Source of the DNA: Squalus acanthias
Lineage: Eukaryota
Assembly: GCA_030390025.1 (NCBI GenBank)
Contig: CM059432.1
Coordinates: 87,670,001-87,734,000, forward strand
Direction of reading: 5' to 3'
Length of the DNA: 64,000 nt
Part shown: piece by piece, positions 45,500-59,700 of the stretch
How the letters are laid out: each line of letters starts with the position of its first letter
How positions within the stretch are numbered: the first letter of the stretch is position 1
The notes under the pieces: model-generated
Databases searched by the model: none
What the model was told of the DNA's origin: nothing
Seen by the model: the letters and a program-made list of their open reading frames with translations, nothing else
Position numbers and translations under genes: made by a program

Positions 45500-47154
45500 T
45501 GTAAGGGGTTCCTGACCCTGCGTGTCTCGCAGCCTGTGAGATTCACGCGGCTCTGTGCAGCCTGTATGTCAGTGCGGGTCTAGGCCTTGTTGCCTGTTCT
45601 GGTCTCCAGCCAGTCTGGGAACACTAGACACACCTGTGAGTGGTTCGAATCACTCTCCCTTACGGTTCTAGACACTGGACTTAGATGCGAGAGCAGTAAT
45701 GGAGATAAAACTCATGTAGACTTGGTTTGAATGGTACGAAATGGAAAATCTTTATTGCATGATACTTAAAATTATGAAATACATGTCATAAGCACAGATT
45801 AATGACAGTACAATCTTACAAACAGTTATATAGTCGATCTTAGGGAAACGAGGAACGAACGGCACAAAGTAAATAGGGGCACACATTACAAATATCCTTA
45901 ATCCTTAAACCCTCCCCTATCAATATCTATCCTAAACTAGATTCGTAGGATTTCGAGACTCATGCTCACCACTCGTGATAACTCGGAGAAATTCCGAATA
46001 GCTGATCGGATGTTTTTCACCGCAGCACCCACGTGTCGGTCAGGAGATCTCCTGGTCCCACTTGTTTACTTGCTTCTGCTGCTCCGGCTAGCAGGCTGGA
46101 CCGTCTGCTGTGATGAAGACCTGTGTTGGTTGGTTTAACAGGTACTCTTCGAGCACAGTTATCGATATCGTCGATACGATATGTTTCCTTGCAAGTTCAA
46201 AGAAGTCTTCCTGGCGAGGAAAACTTGGCTAATCGACCTACAGGCGCGGTCGGGATTTACTGACCGTGGCGATGGATATGGTCTTCCTCTCTTCTCATCT
46301 CATCTCATCTCATCTCGGGCCTTCGGTTCCGCTGCCAGTTACCAACATAGGTCTTCGTTACGCGACACGAGGTAGATCCGAACGGATCAGAAAGTTCAAC
46401 AGTCTTTTCAGAAGAGGCAACAGGCGAGCAGGAGCGAGCCCAGCTACGAGTACACAGGAGCAGCCACGAGGTTACGAATCGACCGGATAAAAGCACAGGA
46501 GCCAGAGAGCAAGAGCAAGAGAGCGAATGGACGGTTTGGAGCCTGCAATTATAGTGCAAAATCTTCCGTTTTCCCGCCCAACTATAATGTCCATTCTTTT
46601 GTTTAGGGTTTGGCGCCCAAATGTCTTGTATGGGTGATCTCCGTTCTTAATGGGTTTCGGGGCTACTCGTAAATGTCTGAGTACCTGTTAATATTTCTCC
46701 CATTGTTAAATCGGTCGGTGTTCTCCCTGGAGGGGTTTGGGGCTTCCAAGTGTCCTGTATAACTACCTGCTAACGGCTCTCTCATCGTAGAGTCGTTGGG
46801 ATTTTACATATTAATGTCTTTTGGATGGGCCCTTGATTACTCGGTACAATGGCTTTCCTTTGTACCTGGGAGACCGATTTCAGTATCTATGTTTATACTG
46901 CAAACCCATAATGTCTCGTGTATTATCTTCACTGTGCTGAATCTTAATCGATCTTGCACAAATGTTTATTGGAACGCCATCTTGTCTGCCTGTTGAAAAG
47001 TCTAGAATGTTCTGTCACGAGGTGCGGCGGCCATTTTACAGGCTGCTTGTGTCCACTTTAAACCTGCCAGCATTCTGCTGAAATAAAAGCTGTTTGAACG
47101 AAACTCTGTGTTTTCTCCTTATTAACAAAATCGCGATATATTGCGAATTCTACA
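45500..47154 (-). repeat. 3' LTR (1655 bp)
   Basis: Direct repeat of 56615-58269 (offset 11115). Confidence 0.98.
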
Positions 47155-47607: not shown

Positions 47608-50142
47608 TTACACGATGCTTTCGTCGTGCACGCGCACGTAACGTTCTCGCCACTCTCCCGTGTTTTCATGCTTGGTGAGGCGTTTGTCTCTTTTACAATG
47701 TACGACCAATAGGTACACTACAATAAACACTTGGCATACGACTAAAATGTGGGAGGCTATTCTGATCCATGAAGGCACTTCAATATTAGTGAACAGATTC
47801 CACCACGGTGGAACTACTATATCCAGAATGTCTGTTCCTATTTCGACAGTTTTCTGCTCTAATGTGTAAAAGTGTTTCTGTGACACCGCGACGGCTTTTA
47901 AAAGCTTGGTGAGGTGTTCAGGGAGAGGGGGAATGAGGTATCCAAAATGCGTGACGAATCGCTGCAAGTCGGTGAAATTCTCTTTTACTGTGAGATGAAC
48001 AGTGGATGGTTCAGGGATTGGGATAATTCGCTGTTGTGCTACTTGAACTTCCGCCCTGGGTTTAAAACAGAAACTGCTGTCACTCACCGGACACCGGCTA
48101 CGGTTTCCATGCTGGTAGTGTTGCGCTGCAGTGGTAACACAATATGTTCCACCCCCGATGTATGCTACCTGCGGAGGCACATGATCTTGTGCCATTGCCT
48201 CCATGGTGCAATTCATGGACTTGGCGCCAGTCGTTCTGAACCCGCACTGTGGTGTTAAAAAGGCATTCAAGTGCTGGGGGCACAGTATTATGTGTGCTCC
48301 CCTGCCACGACAACCAGAGAGATCTGTACCTGTCATCGTTTGCTCCCAGCGGATGACGTAAGGTGGAACCGCTGCATAACGAATGTGGGCTCCCCCCTGA
48401 ATGACACCAATGTTCTCTACCCGATATACCGGGGCGGGCTTTGCTGTGTCGCCCAAAACCGGCATGCATAAAACTATACCCATAATGGTATGGTTTGATC
48501 GTCCGCAGTCCACGGGGACTGGGTATGCTTCTGAAGCTAGCCTGAGCTGGCACGGGCTCAATGCGTTCTGAAAAGGGTGGAGCGCCCGTAGGTGTTTGTT
48601 ACTTATCCAGGACGGAACCAAACCTTGTTTTAAATCCTCCAAATTACTGCGGCCCTCGCCCAGTAACCACGCCCCGTAAAGCACGCACACCTCGTTCTGC
48701 ACAGCTTGATCGGATGCATTCCGATCTTCCCTAATCAGGGCATTTACCGTCTTTGCATGTTTCTCCAACTCTGCTATAATTTCCTTTAAATGGAGGGTCA
48801 TGGCTTGGTCCTCGTGTAGACCTGACCCTACCACTTTATTCTCATCTGTTAGAATGTCTTTTAATTGTGTCTTTAAACCATTAATCTGGGTCTGCAGCTC
48901 CACACTGTCTAGAGCGTTGACCACAGATGTACCCGTGTTAAAAGCAGTGAACGCATCGTTCACCAAACCCCTTCTTTGCCTCCCTACTTGATCCAAAACT
49001 TCCTGTGGTGCGGTGTACAAACTTGTTTTATCAATTTCCGCGAAATCGAATTCGTAAAATTGCCTGAACATCTTGGTCAACAGGACCTGGTACAACTGTT
49101 CCGTCTTTTTGGGGCACCACTCTGGTAACCGCACCTCAGTGAGATTTAAAATCACCGAGGCCACCGCGTAATGTACCCCCTGAAATAGTATCTGGTCTGT
49201 GGGGACCAGTACCAAACCATTCCCGGGTCCCTTACTAGTTTTAGGGCACCCTTCTTCCTCAGCTAGAACCACCGGAATCGTGGGCGGGGCTTTGCGTGGG
49301 CGCGTAATGAGCTCAGTGGCATTTACTGGGATCGGGGAGAATGGGGCTCCGCACCCCCTGGTGCTCGCATCCCACCTCATCCCCTGTCCGTTATCCTGCC
49401 ATTGATTAATAAAAAATATGGAGATGCCTTTGGGGCAAACGTACTTTGACCCCCACATACATACATAAATTCCCTCATCCGGTTCCCACCATTTGTCCCA
49501 ACAGACTTTCACTTGTCCGTCTGTCCCCGTAATTGTCCGATGGGTATTATTACCCAGTCGTTCCCACTCGACCGAAGAGTTCCTCATAGTTTTGCTCAGC
49601 TTTCGCAGCCACCACCATCGGCTCAATGGGACCTTCCCACTACAAGTCAAACAAATCCGTTTGCCGACGGTGACGCTGATCCTGGGTGCGATGATCCTTA
49701 CTTTGGGGCACAGTAAAGAAGTCTCTTGGTAGGCAAACCCCGACGTGCTGGAATACTCCGTTGAGTTCGTTCCCAGCCATCCTGGCCACCTTCCCTTGTG
49801 GAAATAGGTGCTGGTCTCCTCTGCCTTCCGTCTTCCGGTCCCATCCACCGCGATGGGGGCCGTGTCCCCGGAACATCCAAACACCACGACATCCTTGGTG
49901 CGGCCTCGATAGGCCAATCCACATCCGATTGCCACGAGCAATACTAGAATTCGTTCCATCCTTCCTTGGTTCCTGTGATCAGATAGAATGAGGTAGCCAG
50001 CCTCGCAAGAGTCTCTGGCTTTTGTGAAGGGTGAGCGGGTCCCCTGACCTCGCCTCACGTAAACTTCAACGTTCGCTGAATAAACTTCAACTAAACCTAT
50101 CTTTAAAGCTCCCATCATTTTATCGTTTTCTGTTAAAAACAC
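47608..50142 (-). CDS. env: Envelope/class I fusion glycoprotein; likely start at 49959 (MERILVLL...)
   Basis: Signal peptide, Ig-like domain, RQRR furin site, fusion peptide plus heptad repeat, Cys-rich ectodomain, C-terminal TM and basic tail. Confidence 0.88.
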   Translation of the reverse strand: MFLTENDKMMGALKIGLVEVYSANVEVYVRRGQGTRSPFTKARDSCEAGYLILSDHRNQGRMERILVLLVAIGCGLAYRGRTKDVVVFGCSGDTAPIAVDGTGRRKAEETSTYFHKGRWPGWLGTNSTEYSSTSGFAYQETSLLCPKVRIIAPRISVTVGKRICLTCSGKVPLSRWWWLRKLSKTMRNSSVEWERLGNNTHRTITGTDGQVKVCWDKWWEPDEGIYVCMWGSKYVCPKGISIFFINQWQDNGQGMRWDASTRGCGAPFSPIPVNATELITRPRKAPPTIPVVLAEEEGCPKTSKGPGNGLVLVPTDQILFQGVHYAVASVILNLTEVRLPEWCPKKTEQLYQVLLTKMFRQFYEFDFAEIDKTSLYTAPQEVLDQVGRQRRGLVNDAFTAFNTGTSVVNALDSVELQTQINGLKTQLKDILTDENKVVGSGLHEDQAMTLHLKEIIAELEKHAKTVNALIREDRNASDQAVQNEVCVLYGAWLLGEGRSNLEDLKQGLVPSWISNKHLRALHPFQNALSPCQLRLASEAYPVPVDCGRSNHTIMGIVLCMPVLGDTAKPAPVYRVENIGVIQGGAHIRYAAVPPYVIRWEQTMTGTDLSGCRGRGAHIILCPQHLNAFLTPQCGFRTTGAKSMNCTMEAMAQDHVPPQVAYIGGGTYCVTTAAQHYQHGNRSRCPVSDSSFCFKPRAEVQVAQQRIIPIPEPSTVHLTVKENFTDLQRFVTHFGYLIPPLPEHLTKLLKAVAVSQKHFYTLEQKTVEIGTDILDIVVPPWWNLFTNIEVPSWIRIASHILVVCQVFIVVYLLVVHCKRDKRLTKHENTGEWRERYVRVHDESIV

Positions 50143-50145
50143 TAC

Positions 50146-50230
50146 AAACTTAACCTTGAACTATAAACTTAAAACTTAACCTTGAACTATAAACTTAAAA
50201 CTTAACCTTGAACTATAAACTTAAAACTTA
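50146..50230. repeat. 26-bp tandem repeat (x3.3) between pol and env
   Basis: Unit aaacttaaccttgaactataaactta. Confidence 0.95.
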
Positions 50231-50274
50231 CAACTTCTTACTATACAGTGCCGCCCGTTCTCAGGGCGGCCCCT

Positions 50275-53200
50275 TTAAATTCTGAGAAGGCTGCTGCGAG
50301 CTCTTCCCGACGGTGGGAGGGCACTGACCCTTCCCTCTGATCTGCCGCAGCCTGTTGCTGCGCTGACCCTTCCCTCTGATCTGCCGCAGCCTGTTACTGC
50401 TGCGATGTGGCCGGTCTGTACCCGGGTTATCTTAACCTGAATTTTACGCCTTGGGGCAGTCTGGGGACATGACCACATCCTCCTGGGCTGGGGTTCTCTA
50501 CTTGACCTACGGGGAGTTGCTATGGGCGGGGGTTCCGTGACGGACGGACCGGGTTCCGAGACCTCCATCGGGATGACCTGGGGTTCCATCACAGTCGCCG
50601 GCTCCGCCTCCGCTGACTCCGCCTCCCTAACCTCGGGGCTGGCAGTTCGTGGCTCCGCCCTGCTCGGCCCAGCAGGCGGGCCTTCACTCGTGATCTCTGC
50701 CTCCCCTGAGGACTGGACGTTCAAAGCGGGCGGCCACATCTCTGGGAGCCACACCGGTACTCTCTGTGCTCCTATAGCGGCTGGCCCTGCCTCCTCTAGC
50801 TCCTCCCTCCTGTCCTCGGGACCTGCAGCTTGTGTGTCCACCCTGTGTGGATCTCTACCTACAGCCCCCATTCCCTCCAGACCGTTCCTCAGGAACCACC
50901 CGTCATCATCACTATGCTCATCTGCACTATCCTCATCTGACCAGGGTACCCTGAGTTCTTCCTCATCTAACCCCCAATTCCAGAAAAACGCTGCGTGATC
51001 GTCCGGGATGTCCCTTCCCCTGATGCAAGCTGCTATGCCTGCCTGTGTGCCTTGTGGTCCTACCTGGGGCTGTGCTTTCCCATTGGCGGGATTTACCCCT
51101 GTAGTTTTCCCCTGCGCACCCGGCTGGTACAGTTTGCATTGGTTTATGTGGAACCACTTAGTGCGCCGAGGTACTTTTACGGCGTAAACCATGGGACTCG
51201 CCTTGTCTACAATGTTGTAGGGTCCCATATACAGTGGTTCCAGACTCCCTACTCTGGCGTAGTTTCTGACCATGACCTGGTCTCCTACTTCCCACTCCCG
51301 CGTTTTGCGGGGTTCCAGCAACAAGCGATTGCCCTGATGCTGCCTTCCCATGTTCCCAGCCGCCTGCTCATAAACTTGCTTCAGGCGCTCCAAGAGAGTC
51401 TGGGCGAACTTGTCCCTGCTTATCTCTTGGAGCTGACCCTCAGTGAGCACCGGTGCTAGCACATGGGTGGGGGTTCGCCTGAGCCTCCCAGTCATTACCT
51501 CGTGCGGGGAGTACCCCGTACTTTTTGACTGGCTGGCCCGGACCCCCATGAGGACTAAAGGCAGAACTTCCGCCCATTTTTGGGGCGAGTTCCTAGTCTC
51601 TTTCCTCAATTTCTCCTTCAGGGTCCGGTTCATACGTTCAACAATCCCGGATGACTGGGGATTGTGTGCTACGTGCCACTTCCCTTCAATGCCCAAAAGC
51701 ATGAGGGTGTTCTGCATCACCTGGCCGGTGAAATGACTTCCTTGGTCTGACTCCACAAAACGGGGAAGTCCCCACCGCGAGAACACTTCCCGGACCAAGA
51801 TTTTTGCTGTACCCAGTGCCGTAGCTGTTCGACAAGGGAAGGCTTCCACCCACTTGGAAAACACATCCACCAGGACGAGGCAGTACTTATAACCCCCCTG
51901 GGTGGTGGGCAGGGGTCCTATATAGTCGATCTGTATCGACTGCCATGGTCCCTCTACCCGTCTTACGTGTCCCATGGGCACCTTCCTTTTCTGGGGGTCT
52001 GGGTTGTTTGCAGCGCACACAAGGCAGTTTGCGCAGAACTCGCGGACTTGTTCCCTGAGCCCTGGCCACCATCCCGCTTGCTCTACCCGTTGCCAGGTAA
52101 CCTCGGGCCCGGGGTGCCCTGCCCCTGGTCCCTCGTGAGCCAACTGGAGGAATTCCCTCCTGTGCTGCTGCGGCACAACCCACTGCTCCTCGCGGAACAG
52201 CATGCCTTCCTTAACTGAGAGGGTTGCCGTACTGTACGGACCTTCTACCTGCCTCCCCTCAGCAATCGTTTTTAGGACTGCTTTTAGGGCGGGATCCTGG
52301 GCTTGGACGGTCTTAAGGTCTAGGGGCAATGCTACCCTGGGGTTCCCGGGATTCCCGTCCCCGCCTCGGACCGCTGCTATGGGTCCGGTCCTATAGGGGT
52401 TCCAGAAAGTGCCGTCGCGGGCACCCTCCCTGGCTAGCGCATCCGCCTGCCGGTTGCCCTCCCCACGGGGCTCTGTGGAGGAGTGAGCTTTCACCTTATG
52501 GATGAAAATCTCTCCTTCCTCCCCTACTGCTGCAGCTAAGATCTTTTCCAGCAAGGGCTTCACCGTTAAAGGTCGCCCGTCCGCGGAGGTGTATCCGCGG
52601 CGGGACCAAATGGCCAGGTATTCCGTACACGAATTGCAGGTGAACATACTGTCCGAGCAAATCGTGTATGGGGTTGGGAAAATGTCTGGGTGGGTCACAA
52701 CGTACACCACGGCAGACAGCTCAGCCTGCTGCGCGCTCATGGTGCTAGGGAGCTTGATCGCCAGGGCAAGGTCTGCCGCAGGGTCATAAACTCCACACCC
52801 TGTGAGTCGCTCGCCAGCAGACACTGTGCTAGACCCATCAACATAAATCTCGCGCCCAGTGGGATGTATCCCGGCCCGTAAACCTATGTTGACGTCCCAC
52901 ACCCCTTCCACCGAACACCGGTGGGCTGTACCGGGGTATACCAAATTGGCCGCAAGCCTGGGCTCGCAAAGACCTTTTACTCTAAGATCCAACTGGGAGA
53001 GAAGAAGGGTCCAACGCGCAATGCGTGCGCTGCTTACGGTCCCGTCTTTAATCCTCCCATCCAGAAGCATCTTAGTTGGTGTGTGATGTGTGAGGAGAGT
53101 GATGGGAGAGAGCCCTGTGAAGATCGCTGATCTTTTCACAGCCCAATGCGTGGCTAAAAGGTGCCTTTCGCAATTGGAGAAACTTCTCTCCACATCCGTT

Positions 53201-54798
53201 AATACCCTGGATGAATAGACAACCGGCCTCAGCTTGCCGTGACGCTCTTGGAGCAGCACGGCGCTTAAGCTGTCTCCGCTGGCAGCTACCTCCAGGAAAA
53301 ACTCCTTCCCCCCATCTATGGCCCCTAAGGCTGGCGCGGTCTGCAGATCCCTCTTTAACTTCTCGAAGGCTGCTTGGCAGCCCTCGTCCCAAAACCACTC
53401 CACCCCCTTATGGAGGAGTCGGAGGAGCGGCGCCGCTGTGGCCGCATAATCTTCGATAAAATCCCTGCAGTAACCGGTCAGTCCCAAGAAGGACCTCACA
53501 CCCCTCACGTTGTTGGGAATCGGTAATTCTTGCACCGACTCCCTCCTTGCTTTGTCTATGGCTCTTTCCCCAGCGCGTATGGTCAGTCCCAGGAATTTTA
53601 CTTCCCGCTGACCGATACGTGCTTTCTTAGGGTTTATTTTAAAACCCTTTCTCGCTAACAGCTCCAATAACTCGTCCAGCAGTGGTCCGTGCTCCTCCCT
53701 TGAGTCCGTAAATAGGAGCAAATCATCCACATACTGTACTATCTGATTGGGCTGACTAAACTCCTTTAAACTTCCTGCCATACACTGATGAAAAATACTG
53801 GGGCTATTGTGGAAACCCTGTGGCAGACAGTTCCACGTGTACTGTTGCCCTTTGAAAGTAAAAGCAAACTTGTACTGGTCCTCTCGCCGCAGCGGGATGG
53901 ACCAAAAACCGTTCGAGATATCCAGCACCGTGAACGTGGTCGCGGACGCTGGGATGCTCCCTATTAGGTCAGCAACTGCTGCTACTGTGGGCGCGCAGGC
54001 GGGAATGTTACTGTTAAGGACTCTGTAGTCCACCGTGGCTCTCCACGAATTATCCGGCTTCCTAACCGGCCATAATGGGGAGTTCACGTGTGTGGCTATC
54101 GGCCTCAACACGCCCTGCTGCACCAAGGAAGACATTGCTGTCTCCATATCTGATTCTGCTTCTTTGGGGAAGTTATACTGCTTTTGGGGTCGGGTCATGG
54201 GGTCCCCATCTACGCTGACCTCAAACCCGACCACTCTCCCACAATCGTGCTTGTGGGTTGCAAACGCGTGCATATTATCTGACACGTACGTTTGCATGTC
54301 CGTTGGGACATCTGCGACCATAAGCCTGAGGTCGTAGCCTCCGGATGGCTGTACGGTACACAGGACCCCTGTTTCTTCCTCCCCCGGAATCACTATTACC
54401 TCGCCTTTTTCACCTTTAGCTCCCCAGAGACAGTGATTTCTGAGGTCCACGAGGATCCCGTGTCCCGCTAGGAGATCGGACCCGAGAATACCTCTTCCAC
54501 CCCCCTTTTGCCATGCCATCAGTATACACTTCCACTTAAGGCGAAGTGTTCCTAAACGAATGGATAGCGGAAGGGAAAACGTGCCAGCCTGTTCTTTTCC
54601 TGTGAACCCTGCTAACGTGAATGGGACCTTGGTAGATAGCGGCGAGTCAAAAGGGTTATCTGTATGGATTATGGTGCAAGAAGCTCCCGTGTCCAACAAA
54701 TAACTACCCTTCTGTTTCTCTACCTCCATCTCCACCACAGGTCGCCTCCACGCATCATAGCTAAGCGGACACAGGTAGACGGGCTGTGCTGGTTCTAG
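50275..54798 (-). CDS. pol: Pol: protease, RT, tether, RNase H, integrase, long C-terminal extension
   Basis: LLDTGAS; LPQGF and YVDD; YVDGSS...SAQQAEL...SDS...HKVKAH...GNRQAD; HHCC, IDYIGP, SDQGSHF, VERMN, GPY; frame is open from the gag stop. Confidence 0.96.
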   Translation of the reverse strand, partial: LEPAQPVYLCPLSYDAWRRPVVEMEVEKQKGSYLLDTGASCTIIHTDNPFDSPLSTKVPFTLAGFTGKEQAGTFSLPLSIRLGTLRLKWKCILMAWQKGGGRGILGSDLLAGHGILVDLRNHCLWGAKGEKGEVIVIPGEEETGVLCTVQPSGGYDLRLMVADVPTDMQTYVSDNMHAFATHKHDCGRVVGFEVSVDGDPMTRPQKQYNFPKEAESDMETAMSSLVQQGVLRPIATHVNSPLWPVRKPDNSWRATVDYRVLNSNIPACAPTVAAVADLIGSIPASATTFTVLDISNGFWSIPLRREDQYKFAFTFKGQQYTWNCLPQGFHNSPSIFHQCMAGSLKEFSQPNQIVQYVDDLLLFTDSREEHGPLLDELLELLARKGFKINPKKARIGQREVKFLGLTIRAGERAIDKARRESVQELPIPNNVRGVRSFLGLTGYCRDFIEDYAATAAPLLRLLHKGVEWFWDEGCQAAFEKLKRDLQTAPALGAIDGGKEFFLEVAASGDSLSAVLLQERHGKLRPVVYSSRVLTDVERSFSNCERHLLATHWAVKRSAIFTGLSPITLLTHHTPTKMLLDGRIKDGTVSSARIARWTLLLSQLDLRVKGLCEPRLAANLVYPGTAHRCSVEGVWDVNIGLRAGIHPTGREIYVDGSSTVSAGERLTGCGVYDPAADLALAIKLPSTMSAQQAELSAVVYVVTHPDIFPTPYTICSDSMFTCNSCTEYLAIWSRRGYTSADGRPLTVKPLLEKILAAAVGEEGEIFIHKVKAHSSTEPRGEGNRQADALAREGARDGTFWNPYRTGPIAAVRGGDGNPGNPRVALPLDLKTVQAQDPALKAVLKTIAEGRQVEGPYSTATLSVKEGMLFREEQWVVPQQHRREFLQLAHEGPGAGHPGPEVTWQRVEQAGWWPGLREQVREFCANCLVCAANNPDPQKRKVPMGHVRRVEGPWQSIQIDYIGPLPTTQGGYKYCLVLVDVFSKWVEAFPCRTATALGTAKILVREVFSRWGLPRFVESDQGSHFTGQVMQNTLMLLGIEGKWHVAHNPQSSGIVERMNRTLKEKLRKETRNSPQKWAEVLPLVLMGVRASQSKSTGYSPHEVMTGRLRRTPTHVLAPVLTEGQLQEISRDKFAQTLLERLKQVYEQAAGNMGRQHQGNRLLLEPRKTREWEVGDQVMVRNYARVGSLEPLYMGPYNIVDKASPMVYAVKVPRRTKWFHINQCKLYQPGAQGKTTGVNPANGKAQPQVGPQGTQAGIAACIRGRDIPDDHAAFFWNWGLDEEELRVPWSDEDSADEHSDDDGWFLRNGLEGMGAVGRDPHRVDTQAAGPEDRREELEEAGPAAIGAQRVPVWLPEMWPPALNVQSSGEAEITSEGPPAGPSRAEPRTASPEVREAESAEAEPATVMEPQVIPMEVSEPGPSVTEPPPIATPRRSSREPQPRRMWSCPQTAPRRKIQVKITRVQTGHIAAVTGCGRSEGRVSAATGCGRSEGRVSALPPSGRARSSLLRI

Positions 54799-56610
54799 TC
54801 ATGGGGTACTATTAGACGGTCCTGCGGCACCTACGGGGCCGGTTGCGACCGCCACCTGTCCACGCGCATTCAAGACCAGCTTGCGCATGGCTCCTAACAC
54901 TGCTTCGAGGTCGTCGGGAGGGGTGGGTGCCTTGGCTTCCTTAGCCGGGACAGGCGCCTGGGCTCGGACCGCGGGATTTTTATCCTTGGAATCCTTCCAA
55001 GGGTTCCTGCAATGCTTGCGCCAGTGCCCTGTCTTCCCACACCCGTAACAAGCATTACTTGCCTGTGGGGCGCGATTACCCTCCTGATGCCACTCTCTTT
55101 GATACGGGGCTGCGGGTCGTACCTCATGTACTCTTCCCTTAAGGGGACGTGTTGCCATACCCCTTATATTGCGATAACCTAACGTGAGTCGATTCAAGAC
55201 CGACTCTTCCGTAATGTTGGGGTCATTGGGATCAAACCATGCTTTTGCCTGCTCTCTGACGGCTGGTAAACTGTTGGCTATTATGCACCTAAGCCAATGA
55301 GTTAAAGCTAAACCTTCCACATCTTCGCGCTCGGGCGCACCTAGACAGCTGCGCTCATATACTGGCCACAGCCTGTCGGCAAAAACCTTCGGGGGTTCTC
55401 CCTCCATCTGCACTGTCTGTCCCACTCTAGCAAACGGACCTTCGTCGTTCGCCCCCAACACTTCTAGGACCTCATTCTTTAATTCCTCATAACTCTTGGT
55501 TCCCCTCTTGCTCTCGCCTGAGAGACACTGAAGGACCGAGCTGTCTAATGAGAACAGCAGCATTTTTGCTGTCTCCCCATCATCGCAGCCGTTAATGGCT
55601 GCGGCTTGCTCAACTTCTCTGAAATGTACGGAAGGGTCGTCTACCTCGGTCAGCTTCCGTACGTGATTTATCATAGCTCTCAGCTGATGTGAACTGTGAG
55701 GCAACACCAGCTGTCCGAGGAGATCCCCCGGTTCTTCCCCACCGTTTCTGCTTGGGCCCCTTTTAATACCCGTTACTGGATACAACGATCCCTTTTCTAC
55801 TTCCTTTTCAATGGGCTCTTTTGTTTCTTCCATTGCTTCCTCCCTAACCCAGGTTTCTGAATAGCTGGGTGGCGCGGAGGGCGCAGTGGCTACTACTTCT
55901 TCTGCTTTACTTGGTGGGGATTTTCTAAATCTCTCATTTACTAGCGGCTGGTGCGCCGACGGATTGATAAGGCACACCATGCCGTTCGCATTGTTCACGG
56001 CCTTTTTGAGGTGCTCTATCTCCCTTTGGCAGGCGCTATGATCGGCTCCCTGAAACTTATCCTCAAGGGCCAACTTATATGCCGCCCTAACCCCCATCAA
56101 GCTTTCTTCTTGAGTTCTTATCTGGGCAGCTTGGCGGTTACATCTTTCCTTTAACCTGCTCTCATTCAATTTTGCCTCAGTGACCTGGCACTCGAGATAA
56201 TCTATCCTTGTTTTAAGGTGACTGGAGACTTCCTGGCTTTCTTGGTGTAACTCATTTAAATTCTTAATGAGCACCTCCCCTCCAGAAACCTTCTCCTCCA
56301 TTTCTCCCTCTAAATGACTGATTCGAGCTACTAGCGCTGTAATGGTCTGGTTTGAAATCTGAACCTGCCTTTTGTAACACATAAGCCAGACTGCTTTCTC
56401 AAGTGTCTTTCTATGTTCTTTACTATCTGTCCACCTTTCAGCTGCCTCTAGTGGGCTCTTATCCGCTAACAATTCACTTATCCATTTCTTAGTTAGATTA
56501 ACCTTTCCAAACACATAATCCGCTATCTTTTCCTGCATAACATTTCGTACAGTCATTCCAAAATCTAACACACTACCCTCTCGCTGCCAGTGTCCTGCCG
56601 CGGTCGCCAT
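54799..56610 (-). CDS. gag: Gag, 603 aa
   Basis: ATG at 56610; N-terminal coiled coil; PSAPPSY; CCHC knuckle CYGCGKTGHWRKHC at 55009-55050. Confidence 0.92.
   Translation of the reverse strand: MATAAGHWQREGSVLDFGMTVRNVMQEKIADYVFGKVNLTKKWISELLADKSPLEAAERWTDSKEHRKTLEKAVWLMCYKRQVQISNQTITALVARISHLEGEMEEKVSGGEVLIKNLNELHQESQEVSSHLKTRIDYLECQVTEAKLNESRLKERCNRQAAQIRTQEESLMGVRAAYKLALEDKFQGADHSACQREIEHLKKAVNNANGMVCLINPSAHQPLVNERFRKSPPSKAEEVVATAPSAPPSYSETWVREEAMEETKEPIEKEVEKGSLYPVTGIKRGPSRNGGEEPGDLLGQLVLPHSSHQLRAMINHVRKLTEVDDPSVHFREVEQAAAINGCDDGETAKMLLFSLDSSVLQCLSGESKRGTKSYEELKNEVLEVLGANDEGPFARVGQTVQMEGEPPKVFADRLWPVYERSCLGAPEREDVEGLALTHWLRCIIANSLPAVREQAKAWFDPNDPNITEESVLNRLTLGYRNIRGMATRPLKGRVHEVRPAAPYQREWHQEGNRAPQASNACYGCGKTGHWRKHCRNPWKDSKDKNPAVRAQAPVPAKEAKAPTPPDDLEAVLGAMRKLVLNARGQVAVATGPVGAAGPSNSTP
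56592..56609 (-). promoter_or_regulatory. Primer-binding site, tRNA-Ser-like
   Basis: TGGCGACCGCGGCAGGAC starts 5 nt after the 5' LTR; partial match to the tRNA-Ser complement TGGCGTAGTCGGCAGGAT (recalled, not searched). Confidence 0.65.
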
Positions 56611-56614
56611 TTTC

Positions 56615-58269
56615 TGTAAGGGATTCCTGACCCTGCGTGTCTCGCAGCCTGTGAGATTCACGCGGCTCTGTGCAGCCTGTATGTCAGTGCGGGTCTAGGC
56701 CTTGTTGCCTGTTCTGGTCTCCAGCCAGTCTGGGAACACTAGACACACCTGTGAGTGGTTCGAATCACTCTCCCTTACGGTTCTAGACACTGGACTTAGA
56801 TGCGAGAGCAGTAATGGAGATAAAACTCATGTAGACTTGGTTTGAATGGTACGAAATGGAAAATCTTTATTGCATGATACTTAAAATTATGAAATACATG
56901 TCATAAGCACAGATTAATGACAGTACAATCTTACAAACAGTTATATAGTCGATCTTAGGGAAACGAGGAACGAACGGCACAAAGTAAATAGGGGCACACA
57001 TTACAAATATCCTTAATCCTTAAACCCTCCCCTATCAATATCTATCCTAAACTAGATTCGTAGGATTTCGAGACTCATGCTCACCACTCGTGATAACTCG
57101 GAGAAATTCCGAATAGCTGATCGGATGTTTTTCACCGCAGCACCCACGTGTCGGTCAGGAGATCTCCTGGTCCCACTTGTTTACTTGCTTCTGCTGCTCC
57201 GGCTAGCAGGCTGGACCGTCTGCTGTGATGAAGACCTGTGTTGGTTGGTTTAACAGGTACTCTTCGAGCACAGTTATCGATATCGTCGATACGATATGTT
57301 TCCTTGCAAGTTCAAAGAAGTCTTCCTGGCGAGGAAAACTTGGCTAATCGACCTACAGGCGCGGTCGGGATTTACTGACCGTGGCGATGGATATGGTCTT
57401 CCTCTCTTCTCATCTCATCTCATCTCATCTCGGGCCTTCGGTTCCGCTGCCAGTTACCAACATAGGTCTTCGTTACGCGACACGAGGTAGATCCGAACGG
57501 ATCAGAAAGTTCAACAGTCTTTTCAGAAGAGGCAACAGGCGAGCAGGAGCGAGCCCAGCTACGAGTACACAGGAGCAGCCACGAGGTTACGAATCGACCG
57601 GATAAAAGCACAGGAGCCAGAGAGCAAGAGCAAGAGAGCGAATGGACGGTTTGGAGCCTGCAATTATAGTGCAAAATCTTCCGTTTTCCCGCCCAACTAT
57701 AATGTCCATTCTTTTGTTTAGGGTTTGGCGCCCAAATGTCTTGTATGGGTGATCTCCGTTCTTAATGGGTTTCGGGGCTACTCGTAAATGTCTGAGTACC
57801 TGTTAATATTTCTCCCATTGTTAAATCGGTCGGTGTTCTCCCTGGAGGGGTTTGGGGCTTCCAAGTGTCCTGTATAACTACCTGCTAACGGCTCTCTCAT
57901 CGTAGAGTCGTTGGGATTTTACATATTAATGTCTTTTGGATGGGCCCTTGATTACTCGGTACAATGGCTTTCCTTTGTACCTGGGAGACCGATTTCAGTA
58001 TCTATGTTTATACTGCAAACCCATAATGTCTCGTGTATTATCTTCACTGTGCTGAATCTTAATCGATCTTGCACAAATGTTTATTGGAACGCCATCTTGT
58101 CTGCCTGTTGAAAAGTCTAGAATGTTCTGTCACGAGGTGCGGCGGCCATTTTACAGGCTGCTTGTGTCCACTTTAAACCTGCCAGCATTCTGCTGAAATA
58201 AAAGCTGTTTGAACGAAACTCTGTGTTTTCTCCTTATTAACAAAATCGCGATATATTGCGAATTCTACA
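56615..58269 (-). repeat. 5' LTR (1655 bp)
   Basis: Direct repeat of 45500-47154; TATAA near 57664-57668 and AATAAA at 56866-56871 on the minus strand. Confidence 0.98.
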
Positions 58270-59700
58270 GCTGCCATGACTCTTACATCCTGCGCCAGTC
58301 CACAGTCCCTCAGCTCTTCACACCGCCAAACGAATTTTCCGGCTGGCTCCTTGGAGACAAGGGCTATCCCCTGAAGACGTGGCTAATGACACTGTTGAGG
58401 AAGTCCTCAAACGAGTCTGAGGAGCGCTACAATCAAAGCCACATTTCCACCCGATCTCTCATAGAGCAAACAATAGGGTTGCTCAAAATGTGCTTCAGAT
58501 GCCTGGACAGATCTGGTGGAGCCCTTCAGTATGCACCAGCCAGGGTGTCCAGAATCGTCATTGTCTGCTGCACCCTGCACAACATTGCACTGCAGCGAGA
58601 ATTAGCGTTGCCTGAGGAACAAGTGGCAGAGTGCACAGCCTCTTCAGAGGAGAAGGAGGAGGAGGAGGAGGAGGATGAGCAGAATGAGGGTCAGCAAGAG
58701 GAAGACCTGGAGAAGGTGGCTGCCCCAGTGTGACCAGCTCGCGAGCACATTGCTGCCTGTGATGCCAGGGATGGCCTAATCATTGCCAGATTCACATAAC
58801 TTTATGCAGCACACACATGTGGCTGCCGCATACACATGAAGGATGGCATTACCACACTGCCACACCATAGAGCATCTGTATAATGAACTGTTCAATCGTT
58901 GCACTGTCACCACCATTGCTGGAAAATAAAGGCACCCTTACCCAAACTTGATGGGCCGAATGGCCTCCTTCTGTGCCGTTATGACTCTATATGACTCTTT
59001 GGCCCTTGTCTGCGCCACCTCAATTTGTGATCATACATATGGCAACCACATCAATCATTCACAATACATTACTTTATTACAACAAAATAAAAGAATTGAG
59101 ACTTAGCATTCATTTATAGGAAAATACCCAAGTGACTATCCTAGTGCCTATTTATGTGTGAGCTTTCTTTTACGTGTGCTTGTACGAGGTGCTACCCCTG
59201 TGGCTTCACCAGATGTAGAGGCAGGCTGCTCACTTCCCTGCTGCGCCTGCTTAGACACCTTTGGCGGTCGTCCTCTGGGTTTTGGAGCCTTTGAGGGCCC
59301 CGCCAAAGTCTGCTCTTCCTGCAGCTGTGCAGGGGCAGACTCGGCTATCACTGTTCAGGGAGGCATATGGGGATCTGACCGAGGGGTTGGCAAAGAGGAG
59401 GAAGTTGGAGCACTTGAAGAGGAGCCCCCACTTCCATGTCCCCTCCAACCATCATCCCTCTCATGGGCCACCCGCACTTCTCTACTAGCAAGTAGCTGGA
59501 GAGCACCTTGCTGCACATCAGTGGGGCCATGAGGACCCATGTCTATATTGACATTCCTCATAACAAGGACGTCTATGAACCTCTGGTTTCTCTCCTCAAT
59601 AGATGCCCATCTATTTAGAAGTGTTACCATGTTCTCCTGAGTCTAGCGACTTATGTCCTCCATGGAGGTGGCCATCCTTTCCATGGCAGAAGCTACAGTT

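What the first reader, a model, noticed from the sequence alone, without database searches (positions are those of the whole stretch)
54790..54801. gag-pol joined by a TGA-CTAG stop-codon readthrough signal
Seen: gag ends CCA TGA CTA GAA, and the same frame stays open into protease (60 nt to the called pol start). Known: UGA-CUAG is the strong readthrough context of vertebrate genes such as AQP4, MDH1 and LDHB, whereas gammaretroviruses use UAG plus a pseudoknot. Inference: Gag-Pol is made by UGA suppression using a cellular-type motif.
Basis: partly seen in the sequence, partly recalled or inferred. Interest (0 to 1): 0.8.

Follow-up and report, generated by a model that had tools for sequence, protein, structure and literature searches.

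The report
Alphavirus-type leaky stop in shark-like retrovirus
In a young, intact endogenous retrovirus, likely of a shark or ray, the gag gene ends in TGA-CTAG in frame with pol, so Gag-Pol is likely made by ribosomes reading through a leaky UGA signal known from alphaviruses and vertebrate genes, and the same TGA-CTA junction sits unremarked in published lokiretrovirus sequences.

Summary
Observation confirmed (minus strand). The stop at 54801-54799 is the only one between a 603-codon gag and a 1507-codon in-frame pol, in an intact provirus with LTRs one base apart.

The stop looks inherited, not a lesion. Gag relatives at 45-52% identity end at the same place. Copies in six sequencing runs vary at neighbouring third positions, with no variant listed in TGA-CTAG (tables incomplete). 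UGA readthrough is the best explanation (0.8) but is untested.

'Cellular-type' is wrong. UGA-CUA is the viral type II signal (alphaviruses) and occurs at fission-yeast Gypsy gag-pol junctions. UGA gag stops are known in fish and frog retroviruses.

What is new is this context in a vertebrate retrovirus; my literature searches found no report. All 7 published lokiretrovirus records with a visible gag stop read TGA-CTA in frame, one has sense CGA-CTA, and the paper does not mention it. RT and RNase H trees put this element outside lokiretroviruses, though the RT test does not reject kinship. A downstream hairpin is unexceptional. The scan noted a like junction in a diatom Copia element.

New variant of a known kind; interest 0.55.

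The parts
56615..58269 (-). 5' LTR, 1655 nt, TG...CA
   Evidence: blastn of the two LTRs: 1 mismatch, no gap; termini and 4-bp target duplication CAGC
56592..56609 (-). primer-binding-site-like 18-mer starting TGG, 5 nt after the LTR; tRNA-Arg assignment is recalled, not from a call
54802..56610 (-). gag, 603 codons from the first ATG, one CCHC knuckle 69 residues before the stop
   Evidence: profile of three Gags matches retroviral nucleocapsid chains, best E 1e-4
54799..54801 (-). gag stop codon TGA, the only stop between gag and pol
54795..54798 (-). CTAG directly after the stop (type II readthrough context)
   Evidence: no variant listed at 54794-54802 in six runs, tables incomplete
54767..54802 (-). 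36-nt stretch, starting one base before the stop, to which contigs of diverged relatives still align
   Evidence: loose-end positions 54802 (5 of 6 runs) and 54767/54769 (5 of 6 runs)
54732..54792 (-). predicted extended hairpin, +7 to +67 after the stop; not exceptional
   Evidence: z -2.72 for 149 nt; z +0.68 to -2.23 by window length, rank 36 of 141 windows
50275..54798 (-). pro-pol in the gag frame: protease, RT, tether, RNase H, integrase, long low-complexity tail
   Evidence: Pfam RVP 17-111, RVT_1, RT_RNaseH_2, RNase_H, Integrase_H2C2, rve
47608..50160 (-). env ORF (850 codons stop to stop): RQRR site, hydrophobic peptide, long Cys-rich ectodomain, C-terminal hydrophobic stretch; F-type fusogen as a lead
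   Evidence: feature hits to Baculo_F and Fusion_gly clusters at 0.87-0.89; no envelope Pfam hit
45500..47154 (-). 3' LTR, preceded by a purine-rich tract

Best explanation
The element is an intact endogenous retrovirus, likely of a cartilaginous fish, whose gag ends in TGA-CTAG in frame with pol, and it likely makes Gag-Pol by programmed readthrough of that UGA. Most ribosomes would stop and release Gag. A few percent would insert an amino acid by a near-cognate tRNA (Arg, Cys or Trp by general knowledge of UGA suppression) because the CUAG after the stop weakens termination; this would set the Gag to Gag-Pol ratio. Shown: frame, single stop, motif, intact element, conserved Gag end. Inferred: that readthrough happens, its rate, and that CUAG drives it. 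A downstream hairpin may help but has no support beyond a prediction.
For: (1) One stop, same frame, no slippery site, other frames closed. (2) LTRs differ at 1 of 1656 aligned bases, target duplication present, gag, pol and env open, so the layout is that of a recently replicating element. (3) Both Gag relatives found (2 of 7999 candidates scored; 52% and 45% identical, one from the skate Rhinoraja) end within one alignment column of the window Gag; 3 of 4 members of the skate cluster share that end, 1 is cut short. (4) Contigs of six runs (five organism codes) vary at the third bases of the three codons after CTA (54793, 54790, 54787) and at 54803 and 54807, but no variant is listed at 54794-54802; diverged relatives stop aligning exactly at 54802 in 5 of 6 runs. 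(5) The Pfam protease match starts at residue 17, upstream of the first Met at residue 24, so a Pol started at that ATG would lack part of the domain. (6) UGA-CUAG supports readthrough in reporters, and UGA-CUA alone gives 1.5% (PMC4132726). (7) In the published lokiretrovirus records, 7 of 7 visible gag stops are TGA-CTA in frame with pol (4 CTAG, 3 CTAA; frames read by eye).
Against: No readthrough assay, ribosome profile or confirmed RNA data; all laid data are contigs. The variant tables are not exhaustive: hides 113 rows, and omits the 54793 row and lists fewer differences than its pieces carry. The bases after the stop were not seen in the skate, frog or coelacanth relatives (proteins only). 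The nearest retroviral relatives held as DNA use other contexts: 0 of 13 in-frame gag-pol junctions in fetched loci read TGA-CTA (12 TAG, 1 TGA-AGA). The hairpin ranks 36 of 141 windows. A weak acceptor-like site lies at 54761, between the stop and the first ATG. In Tca2 the sequence around a gag UGA did not direct readthrough in yeast reporters (PMC2194720 abstract). One toad gene model (P0048) has 213 residues in front of its protease.
Confidence: 0.8

Rival explanations
1. Pol is made from its own spliced RNA, as in foamy viruses, and starts at the ATG 69 nt after the stop; TGA-CTAG is then just the end of gag.
For: A donor-like site at 57087 in the 5' LTR and an acceptor-like YAG at 54761 just before the ATG at 54729. 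The element branches deep among retroviruses and its Env looks F-type.
Against: The acceptor is weak (9 of 12 pyrimidines) and one of 24 such hits in the element. The protease match begins before the ATG. Splicing does not explain why pol stays in the gag frame with CTAG. RT and RNase H do not group with the foamy rows. The only joint listed (54647-54990) came from a run listed as probably DNA and has non-splice ends.
Confidence: 0.09
2. The stop is bypassed another way, by reinitiation, internal initiation or a small internal promoter as found at the Tca2 junction, and CUAG is incidental or only a minor help.
For: Tca2 precedent. In-frame GTG and ATG codons lie 60-69 nt after the stop.
Against: Retroviral Pol is normally packaged as a Gag fusion (established knowledge). 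The motif recurs in 7 of 7 visible lokiretrovirus gag stops and in fission-yeast Gypsy elements.
Confidence: 0.07
3. The TGA is a lesion of this copy, for example CpG decay of a CGA codon in an originally fused gag-pol frame.
For: One lokiretrovirus record has CGA-CTA at the matching place, and 10 of 24 records are annotated as a single fused frame.
Against: Gags at 45-52% identity end at the same column. No variant is listed at the stop in six runs. The Pol search covered fused lengths (828-2638 aa), and the one close hit (84%) is a 1145-aa Pol-only call.
Confidence: 0.03

Closest known systems
Alphavirus nsP3-nsP4 opal readthrough (Beier-Grimm type II, UGA-CUA/UGA-CGG)
   Same: Same stop and 3' context (UGA-CUAG in Middelburg and chikungunya viruses per PMC4132726); it sets the dose of a polymerase; a UGA/CGA pair occurs in alphaviruses and among lokiretrovirus records.
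   Different: Positive-strand RNA viruses. Their stimulator is a 126-177 nt long-range stem-loop; here only an unexceptional 60-nt hairpin is predicted.
Gamma- and epsilonretroviral gag-pol readthrough; snakehead retrovirus (UAG-GGC)
   Same: gag and pro-pol in one frame, one stop between knuckle and protease.
   Different: UAG followed by G, with a pseudoknot in gammaretroviruses; here UGA-CUAG. Pseudoknots were not tested with a dedicated tool.
UGA-ended gag in SSSV (UGA-AGA), ZFERV (UGA-CGA), Rhinella ERV (UGA-AGU) and XtERV-S (TGA)
   Same: Fish and amphibian retroviruses with an in-frame UGA between gag and pol, readthrough presumed.
   Different: None of the three listed contexts is CUA; the XtERV-S context was not seen.
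Lokiretroviruses (Wang and Han, PMC7947760)
   Same: Dual RNase H; probably F-type Env; TGA-CTA at gag-pol in 7 records.
   Different: RT tree puts the window on the retrovirus side (SH-aLRT 98) and its RNase H away from the loki/foamy group. No long insert between protease and RT. The paper lists none from cartilaginous fish, and 10 of its 24 records are fused frames.
Fission-yeast Ty3/gypsy Tj1, Tcry1, Tosmo1-3
   Same: Conserved TGA-CTA/CTG between gag and pol, already linked in print to the CTAG readthrough motif.
   Different: Fungal retrotransposons, not vertebrate retroviruses with an envelope.
Vertebrate UGA-CUAG genes (AQP4, OPRK1, OPRL1, MAPK10, MDH1)
   Same: Identical 7-nt context, active in vertebrate cells.
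   Different: They yield short C-terminal extensions; here the extension is a 1507-residue enzyme polyprotein.

Membership tests
Type II (UGA-CUA) programmed readthrough | UGA followed by CUA or CGG | tested here: met
   definition
Type II (UGA-CUA) programmed readthrough | Downstream ORF in frame, with no other route needed | tested here: met
Type II (UGA-CUA) programmed readthrough | Stop and context conserved among relatives | tested here: inconclusive
   Stop position conserved; context only indirectly, from incomplete variant tables and alignment ends
Type II (UGA-CUA) programmed readthrough | Measured readthrough that depends on the context | not testable with these tools
   needs a reporter or ribosome profiling
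Type II (UGA-CUA) programmed readthrough | 3' stimulatory stem-loop (common, not required) | tested here: inconclusive
   hairpin predicted, rank 36 of 141 windows
Gammaretroviral type III readthrough | UAG followed by a purine-rich spacer | tested here: not met
Retroviridae (endogenous) | LTR-PBS-gag-pro-pol-env-LTR with tether plus RNase H | tested here: met
Retroviridae (endogenous) | RT groups with retroviruses | tested here: met
   SH-aLRT 98 in a quick tree rooted on Gypsy rows; no bootstrap
Lokiretroviruses | RT within the loki clade | tested here: not met
   Best trees place it outside; AU test does not reject grouping (p 0.18). Loki labels were set by me: P0007 by eye-likeness to published records, P0076 and P0077 by grouping with it
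Lokiretroviruses | RNase H groups with foamy viruses | tested here: not met
   loki rows join foamy (84); the window joins the SnRV/class I side (94); 150 columns only
Lokiretroviruses | Env like paramyxo/pneumovirus F (PF00523) | tested here: inconclusive
   No Pfam hit; feature scores 0.87-0.89 to F-type clusters; model unusable, pLDDT 33
Lokiretroviruses | Integrase closest to CGIN1/NYNRIN | tested here: inconclusive
   Relatives are annotated NYNRIN-like; IN tree unresolved; no NYNRIN row in the tree
Snakehead-retrovirus-related clade Huo (PMC6001957) | RT groups with snakehead retrovirus | tested here: inconclusive
   Best RT score among fetched viral loci is L081 (44%), taken as SnRV from its motifs and UAG-GGC junction; trees leave it open, AU p 0.45
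Spumaretrovirinae (spliced pol) | RT within foamy clade; pol out of the gag frame with its own start | tested here: not met

The most novel reading that the evidence does not exclude
UGA-CUA readthrough is the ancestral way of making Gag-Pol in the lineage that gave retroviruses and lokiretroviruses. It survives in this deep-branching shark-like retrovirus and in part of the sister group, with an alphavirus-like switch between UGA and CGA. The UAG-plus-pseudoknot of gammaretroviruses and the frameshifts of other genera would be later replacements.
Probability: 0.2. Interest if true: 0.78.

Novelty: new variant of a known kind. Interest (0 to 1): 0.55.

Why it matters
Reviews list retroviral readthrough as UAG plus pseudoknot, with a few untested UGA cases in other contexts. 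A type II UGA-CUA(G) junction in a vertebrate retrovirus, and unremarked in 7 lokiretrovirus records, would add a third signal class to retroviral gene expression. It makes the origin of gag-pol recoding testable on a tree. It also gives short natural cassettes for asking how UGA-CUAG is tuned when a polymerase dose depends on it. In practice, gene callers start these Pol proteins at a downstream Met and label them NYNRIN-like, and a screen that bars premature stops could pass over such elements (inference).

Tried and rejected
No whole genome was held, so no census of copies could be made. No RNA holder was listed among the runs; this says nothing on expression.

DNA of close relatives was not found. 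Viral-contig scans with Pol, Gag and the junction pattern were empty or gave only distant retroviruses. Metagenome and genome scans gave distant elements at 25-33% identity.

Single-sequence AlphaFold models of Env (pLDDT 33) and the C-terminal half of Gag (41) were too poor for a fold search. The Env profile hit to Niban in the PDB comes from a chimeric gene model in the alignment. Rfam gave nothing at gathering level. The careful RT tree did not finish; all trees are quick trees with SH-aLRT only.

Frameshifting was rejected: same frame, no heptamer. A first guess that the element is a lokiretrovirus was dropped. A special 3' structure was not supported.

Of the 24 lokiretrovirus records, 7 gave a readable stop and 10 are annotated fused (only Pfl was checked at the junction). 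The other 7 were left out of the count: Aro, Ape and Lch start at or near pol; Lca and Rca show no junction in the text displayed; Bpe was not examined; Tfu shows X-L-S in its Gag protein. The supplement file is cut in storage, and line breaks can hide motifs.
Full report
OBSERVATION. The finding lies on the minus strand. The junction reads CCA TGA CTA GAA at 54804-54793. The TGA is the only stop between a 631-codon frame (gag; first ATG 56610, 603 codons) and a 1507-codon frame (pol). The other two frames are closed close by and no slippery heptamer was found in 54700-55300. By pol composition, CTAG after a given stop has probability 0.0037, and CTA is the rarest Leu codon in pol, 12 of 133.

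THE ELEMENT. It is a complete provirus. The LTRs at 56615-58269 and 45500-47154 differ at one base; there is a 4-bp target duplication and a PBS-like 18-mer. Gag has one CCHC knuckle. Pol carries protease, RT, tether, RNase H and integrase, and the env frame is open. The nearest named Gag and Env relatives come from a skate and a sawshark, and an RT fragment from a sevengill shark, so the host is likely a cartilaginous fish (inference). The nearest named Pol relatives are frog and coelacanth proteins at 38-42%, labelled NYNRIN-like or Gypsy integrase-like. Quick RT trees put the element with these proteins on the retrovirus side (SH-aLRT 98), unresolved against snakehead retrovirus, with loki-like rows as sister. 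AU tests reject neither window plus loki (p 0.18) nor window group plus SnRV (p 0.45). Its RNase H does not join the loki/foamy group, and the integrase tree is open. Group labels are mine, set from motifs seen. The post-cleavage Env scores 0.87-0.89 to F-type fusogen clusters, a lead only.

IS THE STOP INHERITED? The Gag search returned 2 relatives among 7999 candidates scored, 52% and 45% identical in the alignment. Both end within one column of the window Gag. Of 4 members of the skate cluster, 3 share that end and 1 is cut short. Of 203 stored proteins, 24 align to the start of the protease. 23 of them begin within 11 residues of the match (12 are one frog cluster; all are gene calls), and 1 toad model has 213 unrelated residues in front. 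Contigs of six runs from five organism codes were laid on the junction. Variants are listed at 54787, 54790, 54793, 54803 and 54807, so the third bases of the three codons after CTA all vary, while none is listed at 54794-54802. Contigs of diverged relatives stop aligning at 54802, one base before the stop on the coding strand, in 5 of 6 runs, and at 54767 or 54769 in 5 of 6. These tables are incomplete: hides 113 rows and omits the 54793 row. The position of the stop is therefore well supported; conservation of CTAG within the family is supported only indirectly.

THE SAME SIGNAL ELSEWHERE. The supplement of the lokiretrovirus paper (PMC7947760) holds 24 consensus records. In 7 the gag stop could be read, and all 7 are TGA-CTA in frame with the start of pol. 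Four have CTAG (Ofa, Cne, Pyo, Sau) and three have CTAA (Bsp, Dcl, Lro); frames were read by eye, and Bsp shifts frame further downstream. Pfl has the sense codon CGA before CTA, and the Tfu Gag shows X-L-S at that place. Ten records, Pfl among them, are annotated as one fused frame; Tfu and six others gave no readable stop. The paper's main text has no occurrence of readthrough, stop codon or frameshift, and no paper in the library holds both lokiretrovirus and readthrough. As a control, 0 of 13 in-frame gag-pol junctions in fetched retroviral loci read TGA-CTA: 12 are TAG and 1 is TGA-AGA. One more fish-type locus ends gag in TGA-CAT with a broken frame behind it.

MECHANISM. Most likely a few percent of ribosomes decode the UGA with a near-cognate tRNA and continue into pol (confidence 0.8). 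Shown are the frame, the motif, the intact element and the conserved Gag end; readthrough itself is inferred. The motif works in vertebrate cells: deleting CUAG made readthrough almost undetectable in four genes, and UGA-CUA alone gave 1.5% (PMC4132726). A Pol started at the first ATG would lack part of the protease match, which begins at residue 17 against Met 24. A hairpin at +7 to +67 is predicted, but its z-score ranges from +0.68 to -2.72 with window length and it ranks 36 of 141 windows in gag-pol; I do not count it as evidence. The rivals are a spliced pol RNA (0.09; a weak acceptor-like site at 54761, one of 24), another bypass as at the Tca2 junction (0.07) and a lesion (0.03).

WHAT IS KNOWN. 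Readthrough at gag-pol is textbook for gamma- and epsilonretroviruses. UGA gag stops are listed for SSSV, ZFERV and a toad ERV with contexts AGA, CGA and AGU, and for XtERV-S. UGA-CUA is the viral type II class (alphaviruses, a triatovirus), so it is not a cellular borrowing by default. I found no report of UGA-CUA at a vertebrate retroviral gag-pol junction in searches, judged from their listings and the papers opened. The library lacks most subscription papers and, as far as I know, Repbase records, where it could be noted.

PAPERS SEEN. PMC7947760: parts 1-3 of 4 of the text and searches in its supplement, which is cut in storage. PMC13517186: abstract, passages, the first part of section 2, and sections 4.2.3 and 4.2.4. 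PMC4422223: part 1 of 2. PMC2194720: abstract. Passages only: PMC4132726, PMC8278194, PMC6001957, PMC10435555, PMC5210030, PMC12440569, 10.1101/2022.12.06.519325 and 10.1101/2023.10.26.564294. PMC9040795: a term search with no hits. Supplements of the two preprints were not seen; that of PMC10435555 was not opened and may list this element. The tRNA-Arg label, LDHB, the residues inserted at UGA and Pol packaging are recalled.

VERDICT. The feature is real and readthrough is probable. Each ingredient is known; the combination in a vertebrate retrovirus, and its unremarked presence in lokiretroviruses, appears new. Convergence on a 6-7 nt leaky context is easy and is seen in fungi, so shared ancestry gets only 0.2. 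New variant of a known kind; interest 0.55.

Noticed in passing
window 56592-56610 (-): The first in-frame gag ATG lies 5 nt after the 5' LTR and overlaps the primer-binding site, so the PBS would encode the first Gag codons. The skate Gag model begins alike, but Met 25 is the Met all three Gags share internally and may be the real start.
   Followed up: partly
window 47608-49953 (-): Env has no CX6CC motif and a long Cys-rich ectodomain after RQRR. It scores to F-type fusogens and by eye resembles lokiretrovirus Env spacing, although RT and RNase H place the element outside that group.
   Followed up: partly
window 55980-56430 (-): The N-terminal third of Gag looks like a long coiled coil (weak Pfam and PDB coiled-coil hits), recalling the smc-like region fused to lokiretrovirus Gag.
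   Followed up: no
window 50275-51120 (-): Pol runs about 280 residues past the integrase SH3-like region into an acidic, Pro/Ala-rich tail with a short duplicated unit near its end.
   Followed up: no
window 50150-50240 (-): A roughly 26-nt T-rich unit is repeated about three times between pol and env, just before a likely env splice acceptor near 50130 (seen by eye).
   Followed up: no
window 45500-47154 and 56615-58269: The LTRs are unusually long (1655 nt) and contain a GATGA microsatellite.
   Followed up: no
window 58197-58733 (+): The provirus sits in a stretch whose translation looks like a Harbinger/HARBI1-type transposase fragment (recalled likeness); the flanks hold many CR1-like LINE pieces.
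   Followed up: no
L118 (whole contig), L001: A near-complete fish-type retroviral sequence lies inside a bacterial MAG (gag ends TGA-CAT), and a 13.8 kb metagenome contig holds another deep-branching retrovirus with a TAG-GGC junction.
   Followed up: partly
window 52820-52910 and 55000-55070 (-): The strongest local folding z-scores in gag-pol (-5.4 and -4.1) lie in the RNase H region and near the Gag knuckle, not at the stop.
   Followed up: no
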